Source: a virus
Length of the DNA: 64,000 nt
Direction: 5' to 3' (one strand)
Virus record (IMG/VR): IMGVR_UViG_3300027887_000007
Location: 1-64,000 of that record
Shown here: piece after piece, positions 13,121-40,300 of the stretch
How positions within the stretch are numbered: the stretch's first letter is position 1
How the letters are laid out: each line of letters begins with the position of its first letter
Notes under the pieces: generated by a model
Databases searched by the model: none
What the model was told of the DNA's origin: nothing
Seen by the model: only the letters and a program-made list of their open reading frames with translations
Translations under genes and position numbers: made by a program

Positions 13121-13195
13121 TGCGGGGTAGAGCAGAGGTAGCTCGTCAGGCTCATAACCTGAAGGCCGGGGGTTCAAGTCCCTCCCCCGCCACCA
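13121..13195 (+). tRNA. initiator tRNA-fMet (CAT)
   Basis: Full cloverleaf, CAT anticodon, 1x72 mismatch (T.C), A11-T24 pair, GTTCAA T-loop, encoded CCA. Confidence 0.95.
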
Positions 13196-19006: not shown

Positions 19007-19405
19007 CTAGGTCATGGGCTGTATTTCGAGGTCAAAACTCTCGTTGGGGCCTTGTACGCGAAATACGTGAAGCTCGGCTACCTGACGGTCGTTTTTGATC
19101 CTTCCGCTCTTCTCGATGCCGTCTAAAACTGCTTTTACGCCATCCACGTCGCCCTTCCCGCGCATCCAGATCGTCACACTGACCGGTCCTGTGGTGTCTT
19201 CCTCGAGGATCCGAAGCGTGTAGAACCCAACCACCTGCTCGAACTGCTTCACCTCCGAGCTGGGGCCGATCCAGTAGAGGGGTCCTCGGATGTACTTCTT
19301 CAGGCCGGTGACGTACTGCTGGATGGTCCCCCAGAACGTCCGGTTGAAGTGGATCTCGTAGGTATTGGCCTTGTTGGGGATGCCGCAGGGAATGGTGTGT
19401 CTCAT
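19007..19405 (-). CDS. rusA: RusA-like Holliday junction resolvase
   Basis: DVDGVKAVLDG...NDRQV catalytic pattern. Confidence 0.75.
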   Translation of the reverse strand: MRHTIPCGIPNKANTYEIHFNRTFWGTIQQYVTGLKKYIRGPLYWIGPSSEVKQFEQVVGFYTLRILEEDTTGPVSVTIWMRGKGDVDGVKAVLDGIEKSGRIKNDRQVAELHVFRVQGPNESFDLEIQPMT

Positions 19406-20742
19406 TTGTCGTACCACCTGTCGTCGCTTGGTTGCTCTGGCCTCTGGTCCTTGAATCTGGAGTACGCGGGCTCGAATCCCATCTCGATCGTCCCTTGGGG
19501 CCCGTTCCGCTGCTTGGCGAGAATCACCTCGGCCGGTAGAACCTCGTCAATCGCCGCATCCATCTGCTCCCGGTAGAGCATGAGGACCACGTCGGCATCC
19601 TGCTCGATCTGGCCCGACTGCCTCAGGTCGGACAGCTGCGGGCGCTTGTCCCGCCGCTTCTCAGACGCCCGGGACAGCTGAGCTGCGGAGATCACCGCGG
19701 CGTTCATGCTCTTGGCCATAGACTTCAAGGCCATCGAGATCGAGGATACCTTCTCGACGTCGGGCGCCTTCAGCAGGTGGTGTGGCGGGTAAACCAGCTG
19801 CAGGTAGTCGACCATGATGACGTTGATTTCCCGGTTCAGCCGGCGGATCCGCGATCGCATGTCCGCTACGGTCACAGTAGCCGAGTCGTCGATCCAGATC
19901 GGGTAGGTTGAAAGCTTGCTGGCGGCGTTCCCAAGCCTTACCCAGTCTTCCCGGGACATGAAACCCGTAACCATCCTGCTCAGCTTGACCTCTGCCATCG
20001 AGGAAAGCATCCGGTTTACCAGTTCCTTCTCGCTCATCTCCAGCGAGAAGATCACATGGCTGACCCCGGCAGCCGCCGACCGGGTAGCCATACCGAGGAG
20101 CAGGGAAGTTTTCCCGTGTCCGGGCCGACCAGCGACAATGGCGAGGTTCTTGCGGTTGATTCCGGTTGGAATCAGGGCGTCTATCCCGCCGAACCCCGTC
20201 TTGAATCCGTCGGCAGCCTTCTTCTCCTCGACCCTCTCCAGCTCGTTATAGGTCTCTTGGACAATGTCCGATATCGGACGTGGGCCCAGCTTCCGGTCCA
20301 GACGGGCCAGAGCTGAGTCCATCTCGCTGAAAGCATCTCCGACTATGTCTGAGAACTTTTCGTCCTGAGCCGCACACCGGACCATGAGCTCTTGAGCAAC
20401 CTGCAGACCGACCCTGAGACCGTACTTCTCCCGTAAAATAGCAATGTACTGAGGAGAAAGGACTTCCTTGAAATGAGGGACGGAATCGGTCAGTCCAGTT
20501 AAATAAAGCGGTCCTCCTACCTTGTCCAGCTGCCCAGCCGCCCGGAGCTCCTCCATAACGCTCAGAAGATCAGGCTGTCTCTCTGATTCGACGATCTTTA
20601 TGAGCGTCTTCCAGATGATCCTGTTGGCTTCGGAGTAGAAGTCTTTGTCCTCGAGGTCGGCATCCAGCCGGCCCGAGGTCATCACGTAGCCGAGGATCAC
20701 CTTCTCGATTTCTACGGCATTGGGGATCTCGATGTCGGCCAT
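19402..20742 (-). CDS. dnaB: replicative DNA helicase
   Basis: GRPGHGKT, FSLEMS, VDYLQL, AQLSR, DLRQSGQIEQDAD, KQRNGP; N-terminal DnaB domain. Confidence 0.95.
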   Translation of the reverse strand: MADIEIPNAVEIEKVILGYVMTSGRLDADLEDKDFYSEANRIIWKTLIKIVESERQPDLLSVMEELRAAGQLDKVGGPLYLTGLTDSVPHFKEVLSPQYIAILREKYGLRVGLQVAQELMVRCAAQDEKFSDIVGDAFSEMDSALARLDRKLGPRPISDIVQETYNELERVEEKKAADGFKTGFGGIDALIPTGINRKNLAIVAGRPGHGKTSLLLGMATRSAAAGVSHVIFSLEMSEKELVNRMLSSMAEVKLSRMVTGFMSREDWVRLGNAASKLSTYPIWIDDSATVTVADMRSRIRRLNREINVIMVDYLQLVYPPHHLLKAPDVEKVSSISMALKSMAKSMNAAVISAAQLSRASEKRRDKRPQLSDLRQSGQIEQDADVVLMLYREQMDAAIDEVLPAEVILAKQRNGPQGTIEMGFEPAYSRFKDQRPEQPSDDRWYDK

Positions 20743-21530
20743 CAGTACTCGTCCCCCCAAGTGATCGGCTTGGTTATGTCGGAGATCCTCCGGGCCATAG
20801 CTTCCCCCCAAACCTCGCGGAACAAAGCTTCCGTCAGGTTCGTCGCCACGCACAGGACAACCTCGTTGGGGTTCTCGTAGCAGTGGTTGATGAGGGTGAA
20901 CATGTAGTCGTAGGTGAAGTCTCCCGAGTTCACCTTGTCGAACTCGTCGATGAAAAGGTGGTGAGGGCCCCAGTAGTTAGCGCTCAGGTTGTCTGGACCC
21001 AAAGCCGACTCGTCTGAGAGTAGCCGGCCGAATTCTTCTCTGCGGTAGCGCTGGATGATCTCCCGGGCGGTCGTGAAGGTGACGCGGCGCCCAGCAAAGG
21101 CCGCTTCCTTGAACAGAGCCCACATCAGGTGCGTCTTGCCAGTCCCGGTCTCCCCGCGGAAGAAGTACCCGGAGAAAGGGTTCTTACGCAAGATCCCTAT
21201 TACCGTTTCCTGATACTCCGGGCTGACCGAGAGTGTCTCACATGGAGTCATGTGAGCTAGGTTGGCCTGAGTCAGGTACCGTTGCGGTACCCGGCTGCTG
21301 ACAACGCGCAGGCCGCGCTTTTTGGCTTGGCACCGGCATATCCTCCATCTGGTAGGGTCGTCCGGATGGGATTCCGCACCGGTGTCGCGGCAGATCGAAC
21401 ACTCAGGCTCGGGTGAGATTTCCTCCTGTAATTTTCCCTCCCTTATCAGCTGCGCCCGCCTTTCCGCTACCTCTCGCACTACCTCCTCGACGGATCCTGC
21501 TAAGCTCCTCATCGGCTCCTGACTTGCCAT
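20742..21530 (-). CDS. DnaC/IstB-like helicase loader ATPase
   Basis: CSIC..CRC Zn motif, GETGTGKT, FIDE, ATNL; between initiator and dnaB. Confidence 0.85.
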   Translation of the reverse strand: MASQEPMRSLAGSVEEVVREVAERRAQLIREGKLQEEISPEPECSICRDTGAESHPDDPTRWRICRCQAKKRGLRVVSSRVPQRYLTQANLAHMTPCETLSVSPEYQETVIGILRKNPFSGYFFRGETGTGKTHLMWALFKEAAFAGRRVTFTTAREIIQRYRREEFGRLLSDESALGPDNLSANYWGPHHLFIDEFDKVNSGDFTYDYMFTLINHCYENPNEVVLCVATNLTEALFREVWGEAMARRISDITKPITWGDEY

Positions 21531-22746
21531 AGCTCCTCCCGAATGGTCTCGCGTATTGGCCGGCGATTGCCTGATCGACTCGCTTCAAGTCCTTGGCCAG
21601 CCATTCTGGGGACATCCACCCGTGGTGTTCTGAATGGGTGGTTGAGGCGAGGTGCTTCACGAAGTCTACCCACTTCGTTTCGGCCGGGGACCCGTTTCCC
21701 GCAGCCATTCCTGTGAAGAGTTCTACTAGGGGTTTGTAACAATCCAATTTCGAGGGATCGCCGATATGGGAAGTTACCTCCATGAGTAGTCCCCGGTTTT
21801 GGTTCCACAGCTCCACGATGCTTTTGTTCGTGAGGGGGGTTTGGGGGGAGTGTATCCCTTCTTCTGGTTCCCCTTCTTTTGTAATACCTTCTTCTGTAAG
21901 CGATACAGTACCCGATACACGACCCGATACACGACCCGATACAAGGCAAAGAACTTTTGACTGATAAGAATCATACTTGCAAATAGTTACAAGGGTGCCA
22001 CTCGATACATGACCCGATACATTACCCGATACATGACCCGATACAACGCAAAGAAGATTATCTGTAAGCCGCCGGAAGACCGTAACGCATTGAATCATTT
22101 GCTCTTTCTCGAGTTTGTCGAGCCAGAAATGCACCATCCTCTGCGACTGGTCGTACTGTCTGGCCAAGTCCCGCTCCGAGACGATCCACTGACCCCTCTT
22201 CAGGGGGAATTTCTTTCCGTGGTACTCGACGTCGTGGTCCTTCCAAGCGGCGTCAAGGCAGAGGTCGATAAAGAGGAGTCGGACCCAGTAAGGTTTTCCC
22301 TTGAGCCACGGGTGATGACGGATCGAGCGCCAAAGACGGATGTACGAGTTGTTCTCGTCCCGGGGGTCCTCTGCAGACTCCTCAGGTGGAGGCGGTGGTG
22401 CCGTACTTGGGACGTACGTGGGCCGTTCATGGTCCGTTGAGTCTCCGTTGTCTTGGTGTGACAGGCAGCCGCGGACGTAGTTGACTCCGGCCCGTTTCTC
22501 GATCGCCTTTGAGAACGCGCCGGCGATGGCATCGCCCTGACCGTTGGCGATATCCCATATCTCTCGGAAGGTGTGACGCCGCTGGCTTTTGGTTTTACCG
22601 GCGCCATAAACGACGTTCTGTTCAAAGAGGGCCATGATCCAGCCCTCCAGATCGGTTTTGGTGTAGTTCTCTGCCTTACCTTGAGCGCCGGTTGCTTCCA
22701 ACCAGGCTGTCAGATCGGTTCCCATGACGGCCCCCACGGTACTCAT
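21403..22746 (-). CDS. phage replication initiator (replisome organiser)
   Basis: YIRLWRSI...LKRGQWIVSERDLA...GTLVTICKYDSYQ wHTH; internal iterons; start at 22746 or 22725. Confidence 0.8.
   Translation of the reverse strand: MSTVGAVMGTDLTAWLEATGAQGKAENYTKTDLEGWIMALFEQNVVYGAGKTKSQRRHTFREIWDIANGQGDAIAGAFSKAIEKRAGVNYVRGCLSHQDNGDSTDHERPTYVPSTAPPPPPEESAEDPRDENNSYIRLWRSIRHHPWLKGKPYWVRLLFIDLCLDAAWKDHDVEYHGKKFPLKRGQWIVSERDLARQYDQSQRMVHFWLDKLEKEQMIQCVTVFRRLTDNLLCVVSGHVSGNVSGHVSSGTLVTICKYDSYQSKVLCLVSGRVSGRVSGTVSLTEEGITKEGEPEEGIHSPQTPLTNKSIVELWNQNRGLLMEVTSHIGDPSKLDCYKPLVELFTGMAAGNGSPAETKWVDFVKHLASTTHSEHHGWMSPEWLAKDLKRVDQAIAGQYARPFGRSYGKSGADEELSRIRRGGSARGSGKAGAADKGGKITGGNLTRA
21901..22045. repeat. iteron arrays, putative replication origin
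   Basis: Two blocks of four 12-bp units with a CGATACA core (21901-21943 and 22003-22045) around an AT-rich spacer. Confidence 0.8.
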
Positions 22747-22957
22747 CTTTGTCCCTGTGGCACTCCACGCAAAGTCCCTGAGCATTCGCCCACTCGTCCC
22801 CGCCCAACTGGGACCGCTTGACGATGTGGTCCCGGGTCAACGGCCGGATCCGGCCGCAGATAGCGCAGCGGTACCCCTGCCGCTCGAACAGAGCTTCCCT
22901 CTGCTCCCGGTAGTCCTCCCGGTTGAGCCTAATCCTTTTGGGTTTTGGAAAGTTCAT
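22676..22957 (-). CDS. HNH endonuclease
   Basis: CAIC, DHIV, GG..N.QGLCVECH. Confidence 0.85.
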   Translation of the reverse strand: MNFPKPKRIRLNREDYREQREALFERQGYRCAICGRIRPLTRDHIVKRSQLGGDEWANAQGLCVECHRDKDEYRGGRHGNRSDSLVGSNRRSR

Positions 22958-23708
22958 CTCGCCCCTTCTCGACCCATGTCGCCACCTGAGTAATCACCCG
23001 ATTGTAAACCGAATGATCGTCGGTGTTGAGCTGTTCGAGTAGACGGCCGATAACCATGAGAATGTAGGAGGTTCGGCCCTGAACGAGACCCTTCCCGTCG
23101 TCTCTGTACCCGGATTGCCAGTCGACGCAGATCATCCTGATCGCATCGCTCGGGCTCCGATCGGATCCGAGTATCATTTGCATCGTCTTTATCGCTTCGT
23201 TGACCTCGAAGATGCCGTCGCCGTAGAACTTGAACGTCTTGAAATGGACTTCCTCGTCCTGCTTTCCTTCGCCATGGTCGCAGTCTCCCGACAGGGCAGA
23301 CCTAACCCTAGCAATAAAGGTGGTCGTTTTCTCTTCGATGGCGTGGAGGAAGTAGTTCTCGGGGAGGGCGCCAAAATGCTTTTTCACTCTGGCGAGCTGG
23401 CGGCACTTGGTAGAGCCTATTCGCTCGAGTAGGTCTGTCGGGTACTGTCCGAGTTGCTCGGCGATGTCGATCAGGTCGTAGTACTGGGTTCTGCTCTGTG
23501 GGAAGGCGCCCTTAACCCACTCTGATTCATCGGTGTAGCCACGATACGCCCAGTAGGCGTTACGTTTAGCCTCTAGCAGGTTCATGGCCAGAATCATGAA
23601 CTTGCCTTCTACCTTTTTCTGAGCCTCACCAAGCCATGACCATAACTCGTCAATCCGCCTTAGCACCTCTTCGGCCCGAACTGGATCGGGGGAGGGAATC
23701 ACTTCCAA
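22929..23708 (-). CDS. hypothetical protein
   Basis: Long ORF within the operon. Confidence 0.7.
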   Translation of the reverse strand: MEVIPSPDPVRAEEVLRRIDELWSWLGEAQKKVEGKFMILAMNLLEAKRNAYWAYRGYTDESEWVKGAFPQSRTQYYDLIDIAEQLGQYPTDLLERIGSTKCRQLARVKKHFGALPENYFLHAIEEKTTTFIARVRSALSGDCDHGEGKQDEEVHFKTFKFYGDGIFEVNEAIKTMQMILGSDRSPSDAIRMICVDWQSGYRDDGKGLVQGRTSYILMVIGRLLEQLNTDDHSVYNRVITQVATWVEKGRDELSKTQKD

Positions 23709-24180
23709 GGGCTTGCCTCAAAAGCGCAAAATTCGGAACAGGGAGAGGCTCTCCCTTCTGAAGAGCCTCGAACGATTCGGTTTTGGAAAGGAACCCGAAC
23801 ACGGGGTCTCCCACTCTGCCAGTGGCTTTCCAACAGATCAGTATCAGCTTTGCAGCCGCCGGGTCGATGCCTAGCCGTTCGCAGAGTGTCTCGAAGGCCG
23901 GGTGGCCAAACAGAACGACCTTAGCGCTCAGGCGGTGCTGCCAAGATACTCGCTTGGCGAGATAGTCTCGTTCCGCAAGGCGGACGATGTCAATCAGAAT
24001 CCGCAGTCCCTTCACGGTCGAAGCGATGTCAGAATGGGATATCGTCGTCCGTGATGATTGGCTTGCCTGCTTCGTCGAAGAGAGGGGACTGCCGCTCGGT
24101 CTGGCTTCGGGGCGGAAGGGGGGCAATCGGATCTTCTTTTGGGCCTCCGTCTGGTCCGTAAGATCCAATGCTGGGTTCAT
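23650..24180 (-). CDS. hypothetical protein (start uncertain, possibly 24015)
   Basis: FETLCERLGIDP motif; 5' part overlaps ssb. Confidence 0.55.
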   Translation of the reverse strand: MNPALDLTDQTEAQKKIRLPPFRPEARPSGSPLSSTKQASQSSRTTISHSDIASTVKGLRILIDIVRLAERDYLAKRVSWQHRLSAKVVLFGHPAFETLCERLGIDPAAAKLILICWKATGRVGDPVFGFLSKTESFEALQKGEPLPVPNFALLRQALGSDSLPRSSSGRRGAKAD

Positions 24181-24544
24181 TGTCCTCCTCTGTCCCTTTG
24201 GGTGTGGACCGTGAGCCCGAAGCGAGATTGATCTGGGTGATGATCACCTTGGTACTGATCTTCTCGGTACCGTCTTTTGCCTCGTACTTGCGGATGTCTA
24301 GCTTGCCGAGGATGAAGACCTTCGACCCTTTTCGGAGATACTGGTAACAGAATTCCCCTGTAGAGTCAAACGCCACGCAGTTGAACCACGTCGTTTTCTC
24401 CTTCCGATCGCCCGTTGGGGTTGTGTATCCCTCGTTGCAGGCGATCGAAAACTCTACCCGGGCCTTGCCTGCTTCTGACGTGTGCTTCTCGGGGTCCCTG
24501 CCGAGGTTTCCCGACACGAAGAAGTGATTGAAGTCTCTTGCCAT
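24029..24544 (-). CDS. ssb: single-stranded DNA-binding protein
   Basis: GNLGRDPE, TTWFNCVAF, LRKGSKV, DDDIPF tail. Confidence 0.95.
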   Translation of the reverse strand: MARDFNHFFVSGNLGRDPEKHTSEAGKARVEFSIACNEGYTTPTGDRKEKTTWFNCVAFDSTGEFCYQYLRKGSKVFILGKLDIRKYEAKDGTEKISTKVIITQINLASGSRSTPKGTEEDNEPSIGSYGPDGGPKEDPIAPLPPRSQTERQSPLFDEAGKPIITDDDIPF

Positions 24545-24557
24545 AGTTGTCTCCGCG

Positions 24558-25208
24558 TTAGCTCAGTTTTACGGTGAACATTCCCCACGACCCGGGCGTC
24601 CTTGATCCCGGTCGCCAGTCTGAGAGACCTTTGATTTGACCAGATATAGTAAGGATGGTCTCGAGGACTTTCGGTGTGATCGTCGGGTCGGTGATCGCCA
24701 TGCGACCGGTACAGGTCCAACGATCAAAGCGTGGACGAACCCGAATGTGCTTGGCGGTACCAACCCTAGCCCTCTTCATGAAGAGACTGAAACCCATCTG
24801 TACCGCTCTGTCGACGTGTTCCTTGTACGTCTTCAGTGGCATCATAGCCTCGATTTCACTGAACGGAATCAGTCTTCCGTTGGTCTTGAACTCGAAAAAC
24901 GGATCGAGAGATACCAGACCGCTTTGACTGGTAGCCTTGAAGGTCTTGTTACCCTTACCAATCGGAACCTGAGCGGCGCCGTCCATGATGCACCGCATGA
25001 TGTTTTCCGACGGCATGGCGACATTATTCCCGTCGTGATAGAGACATCCGATCCACCTGAATGGTGGAGTGCGATCGTCTCCAGCCTTGCTGAGCTTCTT
25101 GTTGGCCGGATCGTTTTTCCATTCTTCCATCTGATCGGCCCATTCGATGTTGTCCGAGTGCATCAATAGCGGTGTGGTACCAGTGAATTCAACTGTAACG
25201 ACGTCCAT
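24558..25208 (-). CDS. stand-alone RAMP/Cas7-like protein, putative effector of the adjacent GGC-NN arrays
   Basis: N-terminal VEFTGTTPLLMH strand, AMPSENIMRCI helix and C-terminal Gly-rich loop GLSDWRPGSRTPGSWGMFTV, in RAMP order. Confidence 0.7.
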   Translation of the reverse strand: MDVVTVEFTGTTPLLMHSDNIEWADQMEEWKNDPANKKLSKAGDDRTPPFRWIGCLYHDGNNVAMPSENIMRCIMDGAAQVPIGKGNKTFKATSQSGLVSLDPFFEFKTNGRLIPFSEIEAMMPLKTYKEHVDRAVQMGFSLFMKRARVGTAKHIRVRPRFDRWTCTGRMAITDPTITPKVLETILTISGQIKGLSDWRPGSRTPGSWGMFTVKLS

Positions 25209-25243
25209 TTAGTCTCTCCTTTGGTTTGTTGTTGGTTTATGTT

Positions 25244-25340
25244 GCGCCATTGGCGCCCTTGCCTTGCCGAGCCTTGCCGAGCCTTGCCAAGCCCCGCCTC
25301 GCCTTGCCATGCCGAGCCATGCCGGGCCATGCCGCGCGAA
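25244..25340 (-). ncRNA. GGC-NN pentamer repeat RNA, unit 2 (15 units + terminal hairpin)
   Basis: GGC every 5 nt from 25333 to 25259, then GG and hairpin GCGCC-AAT-GGCGC (25256-25244). Confidence 0.75.
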
Positions 25341-25361
25341 AAACAATATGATTGCGTATCA

Positions 25362-25521
25362 GCGCCATTGGCGCCCTTGCCCTGCCACGCCCCGCCACGC
25401 CATCCCATGCCGCGCCCTGCCATGCCGAGCCGAGCCGCGCCCTGCCATGCCGAGCCGAGGCTTGCCTCGCCCCGCCGCGCCAAGCCGTGCCACGCCGGGC
25501 CGCGCCGGGCCTCAAAACAAA
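25362..25521 (-). ncRNA. GGC-NN pentamer repeat RNA, unit 1 (27 units + terminal hairpin)
   Basis: GGC every 5 nt from 25511 to 25377 (25 of 27 exact), same terminus as unit 2, TTGTTTT leader. Confidence 0.75.
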
Positions 25522-26022
25522 TCAGGATGCGTCTTGCAGCCTCGGCTTAGGCAGACTCTTTACCGGAGCAAGGTCTACAGACAGCTCCTTCTTTCCGGAG
25601 TTCAAAGCTTCGGCCAGCTTTGCTGCTGCTACAACTTGGTGGTCAAGTCGTTTCTGACCGATAGGGTCAAGCCTGTCACGGTTTACCCATGGAAGGATCT
25701 TGATCGCCCTTCTAGTCTGCCTGATCTTCTGTTGGATCTTTGTCTCACCGTGGCTCAGGATCCCAGAAGGATCTAGCACCCTCACCCCCATACCGGGAGT
25801 CCAGACCATGAAAATCGCATTCTGGTGCTTCTGCGATGAGATCCACGAGTTTACGACCCCGTAGTACCTCGGAGATCCCCTCTTGTAACCGATCACCTTC
25901 TCAATCTCTTCGTGGGTGATGGTCCTTCCTTCCGTCAACGTCGGAACAGGGAACACATCGTTCAGCTTGGCGATGTCGACAGAATAGGGAAGACCATTTT
26001 TCCATAAGCTGATTCCAGCCAT
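25522..26022 (-). CDS. basic hypothetical protein upstream of the arrays
   Basis: AGGAGACC RBS; 166 aa. Confidence 0.75.
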   Translation of the reverse strand: MAGISLWKNGLPYSVDIAKLNDVFPVPTLTEGRTITHEEIEKVIGYKRGSPRYYGVVNSWISSQKHQNAIFMVWTPGMGVRVLDPSGILSHGETKIQQKIRQTRRAIKILPWVNRDRLDPIGQKRLDHQVVAAAKLAEALNSGKKELSVDLAPVKSLPKPRLQDAS

Positions 26023-26031
26023 TACGGTCTC

Positions 26032-28221
26032 CTATGTGTAGATTTGAACCGTCCCATTGCTTATGTGGATCCTCGAGTCTGCTAGATCCTGCAGCCGAGG
26101 TTGGTGAGCGATGAAGTAGACTCTTTTGAAGTGGCCGAGCTCCCGGGCTCTCCTGAGCATCTGGATGTACCGGGGTGCGTTGGCGTCGTCGAGAGCTCCG
26201 GTAACCTCGTCGCGGAACAAGGTCGACCAAGAGATCCCAGACTTGATGCGGTTGAAGAGTGCGATCCCTAGGCTTACCGCCTCCGAGACGATCACCTTCT
26301 CCCCGCCCGACAGGTCGTCGATCGAGCCCTGCCGGCCGCGCTCCGAATCAAGCACAACGATATCGAACTCGTCCTTGTAGCCGGATCCGTCCGCTTTCAA
26401 CTGCTGGGTAATGAAGCTGACAGAGAAGCGTGGGCCGAAGCAACTCAGGAGTAGGTCGTTGACGATTCCGCTTACGGCCGGTCCCGCCGAGTCGATCTCG
26501 AGCGACTGGATCCCGGTTGGTCCGAAGGCGGTCTCCAGAAGTTTCCACGACTTCGTGTGAAACTGGATTGCTCTGAGCTCGTCTGAAGCCTTCTGGTATT
26601 CGATCTCCGCGGCGTCGATGTATGAGATGGTAGACCTAGCCCTTCCGATCTCCTCATCCAGAACCGACGCTTGCTTTCTGACCGACTCAAGCTCTGCGGT
26701 TTTCCCCTGAACCTTCCTTGCTACCTGAGAAAGCAACCCAAATGACTTGCGGACGTTGTCCAACTCGTCTTGGGCCTCAGACTCCTCTTTCTGTACGGAC
26801 TCCAGCTCTGCCGCCCGCAGCTCCGACTCGGCAGACAACTCCGAGCGCAGCGTCACCGAACTTTCAAGTTCGCTGTGCTTCGATGCCAGAGCGGAGTTGT
26901 TCAGAACAATCGCCGATAGGCGCTTAACCTCAGACGAGGCTTTCTGGACATGTTCGTCTGCGACGGACAAGAGATCGGCGTTGAAGGGTGGGATGCTTCG
27001 GATCACATCGAGAATGGACAGCTTGAGTGCTGTCTTGTTGGCGTGGGCCTCATCCAGTTCTCCGATGTGTTCCTTGCTTTCGACGGCACGGACCAAGAAC
27101 TGGCAGGATGCGAACTCTCCCTCCGCGTGGCAGGGGACGGTTTCGATGAGGGCCGCGTCGGCCTTGGCTCTCTTCAGATTGGAATCAATGAGACCAAGGT
27201 CCCGCTCGGCGTCTGCCAACTTGTACTTTTGCTCCGAAAGTATCTCCGTGTAGTTGTTCTTCTGGACAAGAAGGTCTCTTCGTGTCGCATGGGCGTCTGC
27301 CAGCTTGGCCGTCCATAGCTCCATCTGCCCTTCTGCCTCAGCGACCGCTGCCTTCGCTTCGCGGATTCTTGCTTCGTTGTCGAGAAGGTCTTTGAGATCG
27401 CGCAGCTTCCGCTTGCACTCTGCAAGGCGGGTTTCGACGGCCCCCCGGCGCCGCTGGATCGAGAGTAGCTTAGACTTGGCCTCTGTCTCTGATTGGGTAT
27501 GGGCCTTGAGTTGATGGTATTCGACCTTCAGCTTCTCCAGCTCCGTCTCTACGGTTTGAATGGAGAGCTCAAGGGACGAACGGCCGGCCTCAAGAGACTC
27601 AAGATTGGGCCGCGGCGTTTCGCTCCTGCGCTCCGCGTCGGTCTGACGAGCAAGCGCTTTGGCACTGTCGATTCGGGCCGCATCGAAACGATCTTTCGCA
27701 AGGGAGGAGATTCTCTGCAGTCGCTCAGCGTCAATCATCCGGATGAAGAGTACCTTCCTGTCTGCCTTCGACAGTTCAAGGAAGCTGCCCCGACGGTTCT
27801 GAGCGGAGAACGCGCTGGCGAGGATGAGCTGGCCCCGGCCGCAAATCTTCTCGATACTCTCGTCGTACGGACCGACCTTGCCGTTGATCCCGGCTAACGG
27901 ATGAGCCCCTCCATCGACAAGGAAAGCTTCCATCTTCGAGCGCAGGGCGTCGATCGTGAGGATAGCGCTGTATTTGTCTGGGCCCATGCTGAAGTTGAGG
28001 ACCAGCTTGGCATCTTCTCCGTGGCAGTATTGGTAGATGCCGGCCGGGCGCGAAGGGAAGGAGCGATAAAGGGCGGCGAACACGCACTCCATGAGTGTAG
28101 TCTTCCCCGCCCCGTTTGCTCCCGTGACGGCGACAATGTCGCCCTTCAGCTTGGTAAAGTCAACCTCGGTGTGGCTGTTGAAAACGGTGACGCCGCGGAC
28201 AATCAAGCTATCAGGAATCAC
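26032..28221 (-). CDS. sbcC: SbcC/Rad50-like ATPase
   Basis: GANGAGKT, coiled coil, LSGGE, RDE..GALD, IAH. Confidence 0.9.
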   Translation of the reverse strand: MIPDSLIVRGVTVFNSHTEVDFTKLKGDIVAVTGANGAGKTTLMECVFAALYRSFPSRPAGIYQYCHGEDAKLVLNFSMGPDKYSAILTIDALRSKMEAFLVDGGAHPLAGINGKVGPYDESIEKICGRGQLILASAFSAQNRRGSFLELSKADRKVLFIRMIDAERLQRISSLAKDRFDAARIDSAKALARQTDAERRSETPRPNLESLEAGRSSLELSIQTVETELEKLKVEYHQLKAHTQSETEAKSKLLSIQRRRGAVETRLAECKRKLRDLKDLLDNEARIREAKAAVAEAEGQMELWTAKLADAHATRRDLLVQKNNYTEILSEQKYKLADAERDLGLIDSNLKRAKADAALIETVPCHAEGEFASCQFLVRAVESKEHIGELDEAHANKTALKLSILDVIRSIPPFNADLLSVADEHVQKASSEVKRLSAIVLNNSALASKHSELESSVTLRSELSAESELRAAELESVQKEESEAQDELDNVRKSFGLLSQVARKVQGKTAELESVRKQASVLDEEIGRARSTISYIDAAEIEYQKASDELRAIQFHTKSWKLLETAFGPTGIQSLEIDSAGPAVSGIVNDLLLSCFGPRFSVSFITQQLKADGSGYKDEFDIVVLDSERGRQGSIDDLSGGEKVIVSEAVSLGIALFNRIKSGISWSTLFRDEVTGALDDANAPRYIQMLRRARELGHFKRVYFIAHQPRLQDLADSRIHISNGTVQIYT

Positions 28222-29338
28222 TGGCTGCCTCCTCTTCTTCCAGCTGACGCAGCTTGTCGATCATGTCCGCTGCGGTAGGTTCGTCGGGTTTTGTCCCGGT
28301 CGCTTCCCAGTAGATAGTCAGTTTCTCCAGTAGACCCTCTGCGGCTACGATCTGGTTGGCGCGGACGGCATCGCGGGGACGGACCTGAGGCTCGATCTTC
28401 AGTTCCTTGACCTCGAGCTCAGTGAACCACTCCCTGAGACTGTCCTTGATGGCGTGAATGTCGTCCCCCTCCTCTAGCTTGACGAGGACCCGTACGAGGG
28501 CGCCCTTACATCTACTGTGGTCGAACTCACCCTCGAAACGGTGGTTTTTCCACTCCAGCTCTACGGAGAACCGGTCGATGGTGTTCAGCCTATGCCATTC
28601 AACGGATCCGGCGTCGGTGTCGTAGACGGTGAAGAATTTCTCCGGCTGCTCGCCGTAGTTCATGGCAACCGGACTGCCGTTGTAGAAGAACGTATCCCCT
28701 CCGATGCACTGGTGAAGGTGGATGTGGCCGAAGATCCCGCCGTCGAAGCCAACGTCGCGGAGATCCTCGACTCCCAGTGTGACGCCCTCCCCAATGAGAG
28801 GCTGACGGTTTTCGGCGATCGAGCCGGCGATGGTGATGTGGCTGACAAGTACATGCTTCATGTTCAGCCTCGCGTGGATGGAGCGCTGGTAGGCCAGATA
28901 CTCCAGCGCGAGCTGGCTCACGGTCACATCGCCTAGTCCCATCGACGCCTGCGGGTTCATCGCTGTCCATCCGCTCTTGGTGAACCACGGAAGGAAGTAG
29001 AAAACAACTCCATGATCGGCGTCGACGAACGTGAAAGGGTGCGATTGCACCTTGATCGTGTTCTTGGCTCTGATGAGCCCGAAGATGTCGAGATCGCCCT
29101 CAATGTCGTGATTGCCGTAGAGCAGGAAGACCGGGGCTACCCCAGCCAGTCCGCGGATCCGCTGCGCTGCCCAGTTCCTACCTTCGACGTCGCTCTTGCG
29201 GTCGAAGATGTCTCCTGTGACAACGATCAGGTCCACCTGCCGTTCCTTGAACTTATTCTCCATCTGGACGATGGACGAGCTTACCTCTTCGTCGAGACCG
29301 GCACAGAAATGCCAGTCCCCTGTTGATCCTATTTTCAC
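28211..29338 (-). CDS. sbcD: SbcD/Mre11-like nuclease
   Basis: GDWH, GDIFD, GNHD, GHIH metallophosphoesterase motifs. Confidence 0.9.
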   Translation of the reverse strand: MKIGSTGDWHFCAGLDEEVSSSIVQMENKFKERQVDLIVVTGDIFDRKSDVEGRNWAAQRIRGLAGVAPVFLLYGNHDIEGDLDIFGLIRAKNTIKVQSHPFTFVDADHGVVFYFLPWFTKSGWTAMNPQASMGLGDVTVSQLALEYLAYQRSIHARLNMKHVLVSHITIAGSIAENRQPLIGEGVTLGVEDLRDVGFDGGIFGHIHLHQCIGGDTFFYNGSPVAMNYGEQPEKFFTVYDTDAGSVEWHRLNTIDRFSVELEWKNHRFEGEFDHSRCKGALVRVLVKLEEGDDIHAIKDSLREWFTELEVKELKIEPQVRPRDAVRANQIVAAEGLLEKLTIYWEATGTKPDEPTAADMIDKLRQLEEEEAASDS

Positions 29339-34319: not shown

Positions 34320-37300
34320 CTACATTGGAGGGGGAGAAGGCAGTGCGTTCTCTTGGCTGGCCGGGACAGCTTCATCTTCCGGCCATTTCAGGGAAGGCGC
34401 AAGCCTGAGTTCTTCCTCTTTCAGCTTTTCGAGTTCATGTCCTATCTGATCCTGCGTGAGCCCCTTGGCGCGGCCCGCCTTTATGGCGTCTGCTGCCTTC
34501 AAGGCCGATCGGGCCATGGCCAGCATGGACAGATAATAGGCGTCGATGTCCTTCCGCTTCCGCTCGGGCGTAGCCTCCGGCCTCCTAGAGTTGATAACCA
34601 TCCTCACTTGGCCATGGTACAGGCGGATGATTTCTCCTGCCGCTTTCAGGGTAGCGTACTCTGCCCACTCGTCGTCAGTAAGTTGTGGAGCGGACACGCT
34701 GCCGGGATTCTTTATGCCCTCACGGAAGCTCTGGTACCTCATCTCGAGGCGCTGTAACCGCTTCTGTAGCTTCTGTAGACTGACCAGTCCCCCGCTGGGG
34801 TACCTTACTCCAAAAGTGCGGGCAAGGCTAACGTCTACCATCTTGGGCGTGGGATCGGTTGGCCCTGAGTCGGGAATGAGGCGGTCGACCACCTCTCGCG
34901 TCACGATGCGGCCGGCCCCCGCCGTGTAACCGAACATGAGGTTTTCCAGCTTCACCGGACTGACCCGGAAGTCGAAGATATCCTCACCGAAGACCTTCGT
35001 CATCTCATGGTATATCTTGGCGATCGCTTTCGACGTCGTGACGGCAGCCTTCGACGTGTACCATTCAGCGCGATCCTCCGGCTCAAGGAGCTGCATGTGC
35101 GGAGTTTCAATCATCCGACCGGTAAAGAAGCTGTGGTTGAAGTAGTTCTCGAGTAGCGGCATGATGCCCGTCGCCTGGGCGAACGGGACGGCCGGTAGGA
35201 CCTGAGTAAATGTATTAGTGAGGAACTCGTCAATCGCGCTTTTGTCCCGACGGTGGATCCACTCGCACATGCGCTCTGCGGTGTTGCAGAAGACATAGCC
35301 CCATAGGAACGGCTTTGGAATCGGAACGTACGGCGTTACTTTGTACAGGCTCGTTCCCTTGGTGGGAAAGAGCCAGCACGAATCCTTCAGCCACCACGGC
35401 AGCTCTTGGTACTTTTCGTCGTCCTTATTTACCGACCATAACAGGACTGAGATAAGGGCCAGCGCAGAGCCTTTGATGGCAGACTCATATGGCCGCTCCT
35501 TGATGGTTCGTCCGAACTTGTCAATGTCCTGTACCGCGGCATTCCAGAACGCATGGGTCATGGAAATCGAGAGCATCTTAGCTCCCATGCGACTGTAGTC
35601 TAAGGTCGCCTCGCGTGACTCAAGGGCGGCTTCCCTTATTGGCATACCCTTGTCCCTAGCCAGCTTGTACACCGCGACTCTGGTCATTTCCTCAGAAAGC
35701 TCGGAGAGAACCCGTAAGGAATCAATCCACTTTCTCGGCTTTATCGCCGTAAGGATGGGGTGGGTCACTAGGTCGGTCAACTGCTGCCTGATGTGATCCC
35801 TGTCTAGAGAAATCATGGCGGCGTGAGCCCCACCGCCACGGATCCATTCATGATACAGATCATCACGCTTGAAGACGTGCCACAGCCCCATCAGGGAGTG
35901 CCATCCCGGGACAAATCCAAGGGGATGCTTTTTGGAGTAAAGACTGGTCTGCATGAATGCAGTCGCGGCGTCCCGAAGTATGTTCTTCGGCGTGAACTCC
36001 GGGTTGATTCCGGTCGCTCCCAGTCGAAGGATCTTCGCCGGAACAGCGAGGACCCTCATAAGGACGTTCACCTCTTCAACGTCTAGACCTTGCACAGCGT
36101 TGTACAGCTCCGGGTTAAGCTGAAGCAACTTAACCTTTCCTCGTACGTGGACCGTTATGATGTTCTCTTTTGGAGAGGGCGCCTTGATCGGCCTGAAGAC
36201 GGTCGCAATCGCATCGAGGTCAATGTCCGGATCGGACAGGTTAAACCCAGCCGCCTCGAGGGCGCCGCGTATCTCCGAGAGCGTGAACGAGGTTGGGCGC
36301 ATGTCAGGCGGAACCGGCTCCGCAACCCAGCCGGCACCATCCAGTTGAGACAGACTGTAGAGTGCTTGGGCTACTCTGTTCCGGTCTGCGAGGTTGATCA
36401 TCGTGTACGTGTTCTTGATGATCGTCTCAAGCGGATCGAGAATTGGAAGCCAAGATCCAGTAAACTTTTTCAAGCTTCCCGGTTGCCACAAGTTCCCGAC
36501 CCCTTCTCCGGCCATCCCCTTTGAGCCACCGGATTTTTCCCCGATGCCGGCCTCGTAGAGCCGATGGAACGGAACGTAGAACTTGTTCATCTTCTTGATC
36601 TTCTCGTACGGACCGGGATGATTCGGGTCATAGCTTCTCTCAAGCATCCCGCTATCTGCGTAGTACCTGAGCAGGCGATCCTGATAGTCGTACATCCCTT
36701 GGAGGGCGTTCCATATCATCGCCGCCTCAGGAGTAATCGGCTGTAGCGTTCTGGGATCAAAGCCCTGAAGCTGAAGACTAGACCTAGCTTCATCCAGCGT
36801 GATGCCGACTTCTCTCCCTTGCAGTCCCTTTTTCTCTAACGTGCGAAGGGCGATGGCACAAATGCGAAGGTCGTCCAGCCTGTCTCGGACAGGCTCCAGA
36901 ATAGCCCGGAATCCGTCGCCGGTAGGTGATAGGTTTATGGGATCAAATGTGTCTACGTTGAGGAACTGGTCGGCTTTTGCTACCCAGCCAGCCCGCAGCC
37001 TAGCCAGAAGGTGGGGATCCTCTACCTTTAGGTCTGCCAGTTTTTTACCGGCCTCCTTCTCGATTCTCTTAACTACCTTGTTTAGCGGATTGAGATGATT
37101 GATAACCTTCGTGTACAGTCCGCTCCACCAGTTGGTCTCGTAGATAGGGGCATCGAAAGAGATGTGGGCGAGGATTTTAGCCGACGCCGGCTGCGCTGCC
37201 CAGCGAATGAAATCGTCTCGCGCCGTGGTAAGAGCCTTCTTTACATCTGGATTTAGGTCGAGCGTCCGCTCAAAGAACTGAGTGAAGGATGGCGCCGAGG

Positions 37301-40300
37301 CCCTCGCCACTGGATTCTGTGTCACCCACAGCCTAACGTACTCGGCAAACCCTTCGGGAATCTTGGATCCGCCGGCGCGTGGCTTGGTCGCCAGCGGCTC
37401 CAGCTCGGTTGCGAAGGGTGCGAGCGCGGAGTAGTTCAAGTCCCCCTTGGAGAGACCCCACAATAGCTTGTTGATGTGATGCCCGGCCTCATGGAAGGCG
37501 ACGTTCAGGGGTCCGAGGTCTCCCGGCTTTTCACCGACGCCGCCAAGTTTCTTCCGCAGGCGTATGACCTCGGCGCGTGGCTTGTAGATCCCCAGCGCCT
37601 TCATCCTGAATCGGCCGAACCTCATTGGTACGTTCAGTGCCTTAGTCAGGTCCTTGAGGATCTTGTGCTTCGTCACAAGGTCCTTGCGGCTTAGCTTCTG
37701 CGGGTTGGGACCCGGCTGGAAGGCAGTCGAGCCAGCGACGGGCGGCAGGACCGGTGGAGTCGACGCCATCGCCGAGGGCGGCGGCAGTAGTGGGACGGTC
37801 GTCGCCCCGCTCACGGGACCTTCCTCGAGCGAGAGCGTCGGGCCGTTCGGGTCGCTGATTCCCTCTTTGCCCGTGATCTGGTCAAGCTCCTGCTGCATCC
37901 TTAATAGATGCGGCATGTATGCGTTCGCTTCGATCTTGGCCTGCACCTCGTCGTACTTCCGGCTCTCAAGGATGTGGTTCTTTACCTCTGTGGTCACATC
38001 CAGAACCGTGTTTCCCTCTAGGAGCCACTGGTCGAGATCGTTGGTCTGGATCCAGTTGAGTAGGCGTTGGGCCATGATCGGCGCCTTGTGAACCATGCGC
38101 TGATCTGACACGTCTCCTATTCCGTCGATGATCCGCTTCGCCGACTCCATGGCCTGCTCGACCCAGAACTGGGCGCCCTTGGCAGCCTGGAAGTTATCCG
38201 TCGGCGGCTCCATTTCAAGGCCGAGGTCGATGCTCTTCTTGCCGTCTCCTTGGTCGTACGGCATCAGTGGGGACGGACCGCTACCGCCCCCAGCTGATCC
38301 CGGCGGGGTCGTGGGATCGGCCGTACCAGTCGAGATGACCCTGTCCGCTGGGTACTTCTCGATGATCTTGTCCAAGAGCTTCGGGCCGTCGTTCTCGTCG
38401 AGTGGGATGAAAGCCCGGGGCCGCATAGATCCTCCGGGGGTCTTGATAACCTCGACGATGGCGCCCCACTCGCGCAGCTGCGCCACCAGAGATTCCTTGT
38501 AGGCGCGGCTCATGTTGATCTCCATCCGTCGTTCGCCGTGGATGGGATCACACATGTAAATCTGCCAGTTATTCGTGAGCTGGACGTTCGCGCCGGAGCG
38601 GATCATGTGGAAGAGAGAAGTGCCGGTCTCGGCCTTCAGCTCTGTCCCAAGGCCTAGCCTCTGCTTGAGAGCGGTGATCTCGTTGGCCTGTACTTGGAAC
38701 CCGATTATTCCACTACCGTCCTTCAGGATCGCCCGAACAACCCGCACATGACGGAGTCCGTTATCTCCCATGATCTTGTCATAGACCGGGAAGATGGCGC
38801 CTGTGACCATGTAGATAGGCGCCCGGAACGTCTTAGGGATTGAGGCGAGCTCCATGTTCCAAAGTGTCCGCGCCCGCTCGATGCCCCACAGTGGGACCGT
38901 GATCCTGCCAAGCAACGGCGGCGCCTCGCCCTCCATCCTCTCCACCGCTTCTCGCTCTTCAAGCGAACGAGGGGGTTTGGGCAAGCCCTGAGCGGCCCGC
39001 TTCTCTTCGTGTTCGATGATCTCGTAATACCGAGTTTCATCCTTGGGATTAGACCAACGGATCGGTGCTTTCTGGTTGGGCGCATTCGGATCCTGCGCCA
39101 CTCTCAATGCGCCCGGCGCCGGCTCGATGTCCTCCTTGGCATAGTTCTTTTGGAACTCTTCCAGCGGGACCCGTTCCCTGCGGAACTTCACGCTACGAAG
39201 ATCGACATAGCGAGACCCGTCCTGAGGATCAATCCAAGTGTAGGCTGCGTAAATCATGCCGCTGCGCTTGTTGGTGTAGAACCCCAACATGCCAGCTGAC
39301 CGCGGGAGATCCTCGAACTGCTGTCTGGGCGACTCGAAACTTCCCTCCATTTCGACGAGCTGAGTCTCCGCTCCGGAGCGAGGGTCGGTGTAAAGATGCT
39401 CTGCCCCTTTAATGTCGATCTCGGTGGCGCGGATCTTGGATACGCCCTCGTCGAACCGTCCAGCTTCCTTTGCTGCCTGCACTAGGCGGGTGTAGGTGGC
39501 GTAGAAGTAATCGAACACCGCGTTTTGGACGGTGACCGGAAGGACCATGATCCGGTTAAGGAAGTTCTCCGGGTTTCTCCCGGCGGTCGGACGAAGGTGA
39601 AGTTTGCCCTGCTTGTCCTTTCGGACATAACCCAGCTTCGTCAGAATCTCCTGACCGCTCATGTCGGGATGGTAGAAATTCCCCGCCATGAGGTCGGCTA
39701 CCGTGTGCATACAGGCAGCCTTGCCGTAAGCATCCGTGAAATCTTCGATGTTGAAGAGTGACCCGGCCAAAGCCTCGCGGTGTCCTTGGGTGAAGGCGCC
39801 GAGGCTCGCCAGCCTTCTTGATACGGCATTGATCAGCCGCTCTTGCCCGCGAACATTCGTCCGCACAAGATAGATCATCGGTGCAGACGCTTGGTTGGAT
39901 CGGTGGGCGCGGCCGAAGAACTGCATCTGTTGATCGGCGGACCACGACAGTTGGGCGCAGAACATGACGCGGCGTTTCTTGTTCACTGCCGCCCTTGATG
40001 CGTGAGCGCTGATCCCTGCGTTCCCAGCCGCAGTGATGACCAGTACGTCTGTCTCGCCCTTCTGGAAGCGGCGCAGCTCCCAGTTGTTCTTCGTGTCGCC
40101 CTTCGTCAGCTTCAGTCCGTCCGGTTTGACCGATACGTGCTGCCCGTTCTCAAGCCTATGTTCTCTCCCCGAGATTTCCGAGATGCGCGACCATCCGCCG
40201 AAGTGCTGGCCGATCAGGTCGATTGGATTGTCGGGGAGAACGAGGCTATCGCAGAGAGCGAGAAGCTCTTGCTGCTTTTCCACGTTAGCCTGGTTCTGCT

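What the first reader, a model, noticed from the sequence alone, without database searches (positions are those of the whole stretch)
25259..25511. Decoded dinucleotide strings of the two arrays (putative guide information)
Seen (minus strand, 5'->3'): array 1 NN = CC GC CC GT AC TT GC GG GA AA TC TC AT AG GC TC TC AT AG GC AT AT GT GG GT AG AA. Array 2 NN = AT CC AT TC AT AA GA GG TT AA TC AA TC AA AA. The two strings differ in content (array 2 is AT-rich) while the scaffold is constant, which simple microsatellite slippage does not predict. Inference: targets may read as NNxNNx..., a period of 3 that would skip codon wobble positions, or as a contiguous string. I found no convincing self-match by eye.
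Basis: partly seen in the sequence, partly recalled or inferred. Interest (0 to 1): 0.8.

Follow-up and report, generated by a model that had tools for sequence, protein, structure and literature searches.

The report
Phage VIPR guide-RNA dinucleotide strings
The two five-base GGC-NN repeat tracts are almost certainly the guide RNAs of a phage VIPR system, a CRISPR-related device first described in 2026 in which the variable NN pairs spell the DNA target; this is a new example of a known kind, and I could not find its target.

Summary

They belong to a VIPR locus.
- The 216-aa gene 51 nt downstream matches the solved SUSP1 Vipr protein (E 9e-9), keeps its GGY-reading residues, and folds like Cas7.
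- The 166-aa gene upstream is a remote relative of the gene beside SUSP1 vipr.
- Each array ends in the same covarying 5-bp hairpin tail.
- 79 of 80 viral loci found by Vipr homology alone carry such arrays, all on the vipr strand. 159 unrelated loci carry none.

I take that rule from the preprints; I did not show it at this locus.

No target was found. I searched the phage's own 110 kb, 1.6 Mb of VIPR loci and 45 related phage records. Exact-seed scans of IMG/VR, metagenome and genome collections gave only chance-level hits. Those seed scans are insensitive.

This scan has found VIPR arrays before on at least eight other stretches of DNA. Verdict: new member of a known kind, modest interest.

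The parts
25377..25511 (-). vrRNA array 1: 27 GGY-NN units (25 exact GGC), the putative guide region
   Evidence: Longer than the 9-16 units reported for the SUSP1 and P. fulva clades, but arrays of 20-40 units recur in this Vipr clade.
25410..25459 (-). Exact 25-nt tandem duplication inside array 1 (units 11-15 repeated as units 16-20)
   Evidence: TRF reports period 25, 2.0 copies, 100% match. It shows in-register block slippage.
25362..25376 (-). 3' tail of vrRNA 1: GGG followed by a 5-bp hairpin with AAT loop (GGGCGCCAATGGCGC)
   Evidence: Identical after both arrays. In 15 clade tails, 100% of cells pair, 12 cells have changes on both sides, and 0 of 500 shuffles reach this.
25259..25333 (-). 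vrRNA array 2: 15 of 15 GGC-NN units, with AT-rich NN string (27% G+C)
25244..25258 (-). 3' tail of vrRNA 2: the same GGG plus hairpin
   Evidence: The hairpin is predicted in the MFE fold of the array-2 RNA.
25514..25520 (-). T-rich leader TTGTTTT just 5' of array 1. A similar TTGTTTTT lies at 25339-25346 before array 2. Possible start or processing signal.
   Evidence: Sequence only. T-rich stretches precede many clade arrays. No sigma-70-like promoter or intrinsic terminator was found. This part is inferred.
24558..25208 (-). vipr: 216-aa Cas7-like RAMP protein that would bind the GGY motifs
   Evidence: PDB 36pp_D 'SUSP1 Vipr protein', E 9e-9. H17, R158, D197, W198 and R199 are conserved. 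AF2 pLDDT is 91.3. Top Foldseek hits are Cas7, Csm3 and Csf2 at probability 1.0.
25522..26022 (-). vap1-like accessory gene: 166 aa, winged-helix-like N-terminal domain plus a long helical hairpin
   Evidence: The only neighbour kept with vipr: 28 of 80 clade loci, always on the same strand. hhalign against the gene next to SUSP1 vipr gives probability 93.3%, E 2.7e-7. AF2 pLDDT is 86. Foldseek gives only weak winged-helix regulator hits.

Best explanation
The two arrays are genes for VIPR guide RNAs (vrRNAs) of an uncultured 110-kb phage. Each is probably transcribed on the minus strand as a run of GGC-NN units capped by a short 3' hairpin. One Vipr protomer (the 216-aa gene 51 nt downstream) binds each unit, buries the GGY bases and presents the two N bases. 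The string of NN pairs then pairs with double-stranded DNA that reads xNNxNN..., skipping every third base, and the filament silences transcription of a competing phage, prophage or satellite. The 166-aa winged-helix-like protein upstream is the accessory Vap. Shown here: the anatomy, the homology of both proteins, the tail structure, and the array-vipr linkage. Taken from the published family and not shown at this locus: expression, binding, the 1-nt skip rule and silencing. The target is unknown.
For: (1) The adjacent protein matches the solved SUSP1 Vipr at E 9e-9. It keeps the residues that read G1, G2 and Y3 in the cryo-EM structure: H17, R138 (here R158), D177/W178/R179 (here D197/W198/R199) and E71 (here E68). 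H17, R158, D197 and R199 are invariant and W198 is nearly invariant (at least 90%) across 39 homologues.
(2) The AF2 model (pLDDT 91) hits Cas7-family RAMPs at probability 1.0.
(3) 79 of 80 viral loci found by Vipr homology alone have GGY-NN arrays. All 306 arrays lie on the vipr strand and abut the gene.
(4) Conversely, 68 of 120 loci found by the (GGCNN)x10 pattern alone carry a Vipr-profile hit. 159 unrelated loci have neither feature.
(5) In 263 clade arrays the per-position composition is G 0.97, G 0.97, Y 0.99, with N4 and N5 near uniform at 3.8-3.9 of 4 bits.
(6) The tail hairpin covaries.
(7) The upstream gene is a remote homologue of the SUSP1 vipr neighbour and travels with vipr.
(8) There is no self-target, as reported for the family (paper section read).
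Against: No natural target was found under the 1-nt skip rule or any other gap. Array 1 has 27 units, two off-consensus units and a recent 5-unit duplication that would break register with a unique target. The tail is a plain hairpin, not the pseudoknot of the SUSP1 clade. The DNA-contact residues K33, R39 and K82 of SUSP1 Vipr are not positionally conserved in the pairwise alignment. There are no expression data. Identity to SUSP1 Vipr is only 22%.
Confidence: 0.88

Rival explanations
1. The arrays are VIPR RNAs but no longer act as targeting guides. They may be decaying, may titrate Vipr, or may serve as decoys. Array 1 in particular may be corrupted by slippage.
For: No target was found anywhere I searched. 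Array 1 carries an exact 25-nt internal duplication and two off-consensus units. Redirecting, decoy-type vrRNAs are described in bioRxiv 10.64898/2026.10.15.759431.
Against: Array 2 is a perfect 15 of 15 with an intact tail. The vipr and vap reading frames are intact and the key residues are kept. The target search was insensitive and the host is unknown. Long arrays with internal repeats recur in the clade.
Confidence: 0.08
2. The arrays are DNA-level elements of the replication module: an origin, iterons, or a G-rich R-loop-forming tract between sbcCD and ssb-dnaD-dnaC-dnaB.
For: They sit inside a replication and recombination gene block. The sense strand is strongly G-rich.
Against: In 80 related loci the arrays follow vipr, not replication genes: SbcC, SbcD and DnaD-like in 0 of 80, DnaB in 2 of 80, SSB in 1 of 80. 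A 5-bp period with free NN bases is unlike iterons. The tail pairing is kept by compensatory changes, which argues for an RNA.
Confidence: 0.02
3. The arrays are a cis-acting 5' leader of the 216-aa gene, for example a G-quadruplex or a protein-binding attenuator in the style of TRAP, which reads triplets separated by 2-nt spacers.
For: Array 2 ends 51 nt before the start codon. GG every 5 nt could form two-tetrad quadruplexes. My first guess, before reading the papers, was a TRAP-like site.
Against: Clade arrays lie downstream of vipr as often as upstream. The published vrRNAs are discrete RNAs of about 100 nt bound by Vipr. The fold energy of the array is no better than shuffles, z = -0.04.
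Confidence: 0.02

Closest known systems
Type II VIPR system of Escherichia phage SUSP1 (vipr, vap1, four vrRNAs); bioRxiv 10.64898/2026.04.26.720920 and 10.64898/2026.04.26.720927; PDB 36pp
   Same: A phage-borne, small stand-alone RAMP protein with the same GGY-reading residues. Tandem GGY-NN units with free NN bases. A conserved structured 3' tail. An adjacent small winged-helix-like accessory gene. Arrays directly flanking vipr on its strand. No self-target.
   Different: Vipr identity is only 22%. Y is C here (85% C in the clade) and mostly T in SUSP1. The tail is a 5-bp hairpin, not a pseudoknot. The vap gene lies upstream of the arrays and vipr rather than downstream of vipr. One array has 27 units, against 9-16. 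The target is unknown, whereas SUSP1 guides target a satellite.
Pseudomonas fulva prophage VIPR (type II), same preprints
   Same: The same component set, with vrRNAs upstream of vipr.
   Different: I did not compare it directly, because no sequence of it was fetched. Its guides map to resident prophage regulators; no equivalent was found here.
Class 1 CRISPR-Cas Cas7-crRNA backbone (type III Csm3/Cmr4, type IV Csf2, type VII Cas7)
   Same: The 216-aa model's best structural matches are these RAMPs. One protomer binds per RNA register, with a thumb that flips bases out periodically.
   Different: There is no repeat-spacer CRISPR array and no other detected cas-type domain among the ten ORFs of 19402-29338 that I scanned. 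The period is 5 nt with 2 informative bases, not 6 nt with 5.

Membership tests
VIPR system | A Vipr protein (minimal RAMP with RRM core, G-loop and thumb) is encoded next to the arrays | tested here: met
   phmmer against PDB 36pp_D 'SUSP1 Vipr protein' gives E 9e-9 in two stretches covering residues 2-85 and 117-201. AF2 pLDDT is 91.3. Foldseek top hits are Cas7, Csm3, Cmr4 and Csf2 at probability 1.0.
VIPR system | Residues that read G1, G2 and Y3 (SUSP1 H17, R138, D177, W178, R179, E71) | tested here: met
   They align to H17, R158, D197, W198, R199 and E68. H17, R158, D197 and R199 are invariant and W198 is nearly invariant in 39 homologues.
VIPR system | DNA-contact residues of SUSP1 Vipr (K33, R39, K82, K88) | tested here: inconclusive
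   In the pairwise alignment only G87/K88 are kept, as G84/K85. K33, R39 and K82 align to N32, L39 and A79, with lysines nearby, in a low-accuracy stretch of the alignment.
VIPR system | vrRNA made of tandem 5-nt units with conserved GGY and hypervariable NN | tested here: met
   The window has 40 of 42 exact GGC units. In the clade, composition is G 0.97, G 0.97, Y 0.99, and NN entropy is 3.8-3.9 of 4 bits.
VIPR system | An invariant, structured 3' tail caps the repeat tract | tested here: met
   The same 15-nt GGG-plus-hairpin follows both arrays. The stem is 100% paired in 15 tails, with 12 cells changed on both sides and 0 of 500 shuffles reaching this; slid controls pair at 27-39%. It is a hairpin, not the SUSP1 pseudoknot.
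VIPR system | Arrays flank vipr on the same strand | tested here: met
   In the window, array 2 ends 51 nt and array 1 ends 169 nt before the vipr start. In the clade, all 306 arrays are on the vipr strand, in 79 of 80 loci.
VIPR system | A vipr-accessory (vap) gene in the locus | tested here: met
   The 166-aa ORF co-occurs with vipr in 28 of 80 loci and no other window gene does. hhalign probability is 93.3%, E 2.7e-7, against the gene next to SUSP1 vipr. That this SUSP1 gene is vap1 is inferred from its position. BLASTP alone gives E 0.5.
VIPR system | vrRNAs are expressed as discrete RNAs and co-purify with Vipr | not testable with these tools
   No transcript data are available. No promoter or terminator consensus was found.
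VIPR system | Natural target matching at least 80% of NN positions under the 1-nt skip rule | tested here: inconclusive
   None found in the phage's own genome, in 1.62 Mb of VIPR loci, or in 45 related phage records with up to 3 mismatches. Eight exact-seed scans of the public collections gave only chance-level extensions. The best hit was 25 of 30, with scattered half-unit matches in unrelated genes and reading frames.
VIPR system | No self-targeting | tested here: met
   The best own-genome hit at 1-nt skip is 19 of 30 for array 2 and 30 of 54 for array 1, within the shuffle range.
VIPR type II specifically | Placement in the type II clade of the published Vipr phylogeny | not tested
   The published tree and type representatives were not available to me. 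The type II-like label rests only on the direct hit to SUSP1 Vipr and the vap1-like gene.
CRISPR-Cas | A repeat-spacer array with repeats of about 25-40 nt | tested here: not met
   TRF finds only periods of 5 nt and its multiples. Pfam and PHROG scans of the ten ORFs of 19402-29338 show replication and recombination genes and no cas-type domain. cas1/cas2 were not searched for beyond those ORFs.

The most novel reading that the evidence does not exclude
The long vrRNAs of this Vipr clade (25-40 units, here 27), which grow by in-register block duplication, may be a distinct guide class. They would direct extended Vipr filaments to tandemly repeated DNA, such as iterons or repeat-containing genes of a competitor, rather than to unique coding sites. 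On this view the AT-rich 15-unit guide would target a promoter-like region. The fact that vipr sits inside the replication module would then be functional rather than accidental.
Probability: 0.07. Interest if true: 0.5.

Novelty: new member of a known kind. Interest (0 to 1): 0.3.

Why it matters
It adds a well-documented VIPR locus from an uncultured 110-kb phage that is far in sequence from the characterised E. coli and Pseudomonas examples. The GGY-reading residues and a structured tail are kept at 22% protein identity. The tail can be a simple covarying hairpin. The vap1-like gene can sit on either side of vipr. Guides of 25-40 units exist. My clade survey (80 Vipr loci, 263 unique arrays) independently reproduces the published anatomy of conserved GGY with free NN.

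Tried and rejected
**Readings rejected**
- TRAP-like RNA site, G-quadruplex, R-loop or origin. These were my first readings. I dropped them after the Vipr match and the clade linkage.
- Known RNA family or GenBank relative. Rfam has no family for this. There is no DNA-level relative in GenBank phages.
- Coding reading. A period of 5 nt with free NN bases is incompatible with codons. The ORFs that overlap the arrays are artefacts of the repeat.

**Target searches, all negative**
- The phage's own genome at gaps of 0-3 nt with 200 shuffles.
- Guides from all 721 arrays against all fetched loci: real guides and reversed guides gave equal counts.
- Full ungapped scoring of four guide versions against 1.62 Mb of loci fetched independently of the seeds.
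- 45 whole same-clade phage records with up to 3 mismatches.
- Exact seeds in IMG/VR: array 2 units 1-9, 1-8 and 4-11; array 1 units 3-10, 8-15 and 19-26.
- Exact seed of array 2 units 2-10 in metagenome and genome collections.
- Extensions were also scored against a de-duplicated 22-unit version of array 1.
- The 43 metagenome and genome hits fall in unrelated genes and in all reading frames.

**Discarded or unavailable**
- One search showed an excess at 1-nt skip. I discarded it as circular, because the pool included loci fetched with 1-nt-skip seeds.
- A first brute-force scan timed out.

Full report
**What is there.** The window is the first 64 kb of a 110,207-bp IMG/VR virus record rated 100% complete. 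On the minus strand, 25511-25377 reads as 27 five-base units of the form GGC-NN; 25 are exact, unit 11 is GCC and unit 22 is GGG. 25333-25259 reads as 15 exact units. Each array is preceded by a T-rich TTGTTTT stretch. Each is followed by the same 15 nt, GGG plus a 5-bp hairpin with an AAT loop. These are the only such arrays in the genome. None occurs in 1.27 Mb of unrelated control DNA. Units 11-15 and 16-20 of array 1 are an exact 25-nt tandem duplication. So in-register block slippage does happen, even though the NN bases are otherwise free.

**Context.** All genes here are on the minus strand. In order they are:
- SbcD-like, 28211-29338
- SbcC-like, 26032-28221
- a 166-aa ORF, 25522-26022
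- the two arrays
- a 216-aa ORF, 24558-25208, with a good ribosome-binding site
- SSB
- two unknown ORFs
- DnaD-like, DnaC-like and DnaB

Rfam has no matching family. GenBank phages hold no DNA relative.

**How widespread it is.** Many carry several arrays. At that point I favoured a protein-binding RNA of the TRAP type. The scan's earlier notes pointed to VIPR systems, and I then read the papers myself.

**What the papers show.**
- bioRxiv 10.64898/2026.04.26.720920: phage-borne Vipr proteins are minimal RAMPs that bind vrRNAs made of GGY/NN repeats plus a 3' tail. The NN bases pair with dsDNA that reads xNN, a 1-nt skip usually at codon wobble positions. The complex represses transcription of competing phages and satellites. 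No self-targets were found.
- bioRxiv 10.64898/2026.04.26.720927: the cryo-EM structures give the residues that read G1, G2 and Y3.
- bioRxiv 10.64898/2026.10.15.759431: describes satellite competition and a vrRNA caller that allows up to 40 units.

**Membership tests.**
- The 216-aa protein matches PDB 36pp_D, 'SUSP1 Vipr protein', at E 9e-9 over most of both proteins.
- SUSP1 H17, R138, D177, W178, R179 and E71 align to H17, R158, D197, W198, R199 and E68. H17, R158, D197 and R199 are invariant and W198 is nearly invariant among 39 homologues.
- The DNA-backbone contacts K33, R39 and K82 are not positionally kept.
- An AlphaFold2 model (pLDDT 91.3) finds Cas7-family RAMPs of type VII, III and IV complexes as best structural matches, at probability 1.0. 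That structure library predates the Vipr entries.
- tblastn places the protein at 22% identity on the SUSP1 gene between its published vrRNA regions. I read GGT-NN arrays there directly.

**Linkage, tested both ways.**
- Of 120 loci found by the DNA pattern alone, 68 carry a hit to a Vipr profile built from this narrow clade.
- Of 80 loci found by Vipr homology alone, 79 carry arrays. All 306 arrays lie on the vipr strand. They end 30-50 nt before the start codon or begin 10-40 nt after the stop.
- 159 unrelated loci have neither feature.
- In 263 unique clade arrays the unit composition is G 0.97, G 0.97, Y 0.99, then near-uniform N4 and N5. Dinucleotide entropy is 3.8-3.9 of 4 bits, except in the last unit, which is AA in 46% and so looks like part of the handle.
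- Array length is mostly 8-17 units, but arrays of 20-40 units recur. The 27-unit array is therefore long but not unique.

**Tail.** Fifteen tails from the window and seven clade loci align without gaps. The 5-bp stem is paired in 75 of 75 cells. Two positions change on both sides in 12 cells, which 0 of 500 shuffles reach. Slid controls pair at 27-39%. This supports a transcribed hairpin. It differs from the SUSP1 pseudoknot.

**Accessory gene.** Among eleven window genes tested, only the 166-aa ORF travels with vipr: 28 of 80 loci, always on the same strand, usually just downstream. Plain BLASTP against the gene next to SUSP1 vipr is not significant. A 21-sequence profile, however, gives hhalign probability 93.3% and E 2.7e-7 over 89 columns. 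Its model (pLDDT 86) is a winged-helix-like domain followed by a long helical hairpin. Foldseek gives only weak hits, all to winged-helix regulators. That fits the published description of type II vap genes as predicted DNA binders. The label 'vap1' for the SUSP1 gene is my inference from its position.

**Target search.**
- Own genome: at gaps of 0, 1 or 2 nt the best score is within the range of 200 shuffles. A gap of 3 only recovers the arrays themselves.
- 1.62 Mb of loci fetched independently of any seed: no gap model beats the shuffles.
- 45 whole same-clade phage records: no match with up to 3 mismatches in 22 informative bases.
- Large collections: these accept only exact IUPAC patterns, so I used 8-9-unit seeds and scored how far each hit extended. 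Six seeds in IMG/VR, plus one each in the metagenome and genome collections, gave 0-48 hits each, about the number expected by chance. None extended convincingly.
- Best result: 25 of 30, with scattered half-unit matches in unrelated genes and in all reading frames.
- One apparent excess at the 1-nt skip was circular, and I discarded it.

A target with a few mismatches spread along the guide would escape this design, and the host is unknown. The negative result is therefore weak.

**Verdict.** The locus is best filed as a new, divergent, type II-like member of a known and very recently described kind. This scan has already reported VIPR arrays on at least eight other stretches of DNA. Local peculiarities are the 27-unit array with a fresh 5-unit duplication, the hairpin tail, vap lying upstream, and the position inside a replication module. 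The last looks incidental, because no replication gene is linked to vipr elsewhere.

Noticed in passing
window 34320-52178 (-): A single 5,952-aa ORF with SLT transglycosylase (weak hit), HATPase, methyltransferase, Strawberry-notch-type helicase (AAA_34 and Helicase_C_4) and LPD38 domains. It looks like a phage 'large polyvalent protein'.
   Followed up: partly
L129-L144, L176 (IMG/VR loci with near-identical Vipr): The array next to vipr is the same 10-unit guide in most of these loci. The distal arrays are swapped among at least five different NN strings and lengths, which looks like cassette-style guide turnover.
   Followed up: partly
L140:2409-2593 (+): A 37-unit array whose NN string has an internal 3-unit periodicity (repeats of CT TT AG/GG). 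Like the window's 5-unit duplication, this suggests long arrays grow by block slippage or target tandem repeats.
   Followed up: no
L012:6301-7010 (+): A 710-nt run of about 142 in-phase GGY-NN units, 120 of them exact, next to a weak Vipr-profile hit. It is by far the longest array seen.
   Followed up: no
52 of the 120 pattern-found loci L009-L128: These loci have arrays but no Vipr-profile hit within the fetched flank. They may be other Vipr types, truncated contigs, or solo vrRNAs as described in bioRxiv 10.64898/2026.10.15.759431.
   Followed up: no
GenBank phages: Gordonia phage Trine (MH271318.1 32267-32827), Pseudomonas phage vB_Pae_LESphi2 (OQ594955.1 4900-5475): Full-length Vipr homologues at 25-27% identity, annotated as hypothetical proteins. 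They are closer to the window's protein than the Felixounavirus/SUSP1 group is.
   Followed up: no
window 13121-13195 (+): The only tRNA gene ARAGORN found in the 64-kb window is a tRNA-Met with CAT anticodon.
   Followed up: no
window 19402-29338 (-): A replication and recombination block (SbcD, SbcC, SSB, DnaD-like, DnaC-like, DnaB) into which the vap-vrRNA-vipr cassette is inserted. None of these genes is linked to vipr in other phages.
   Followed up: yes
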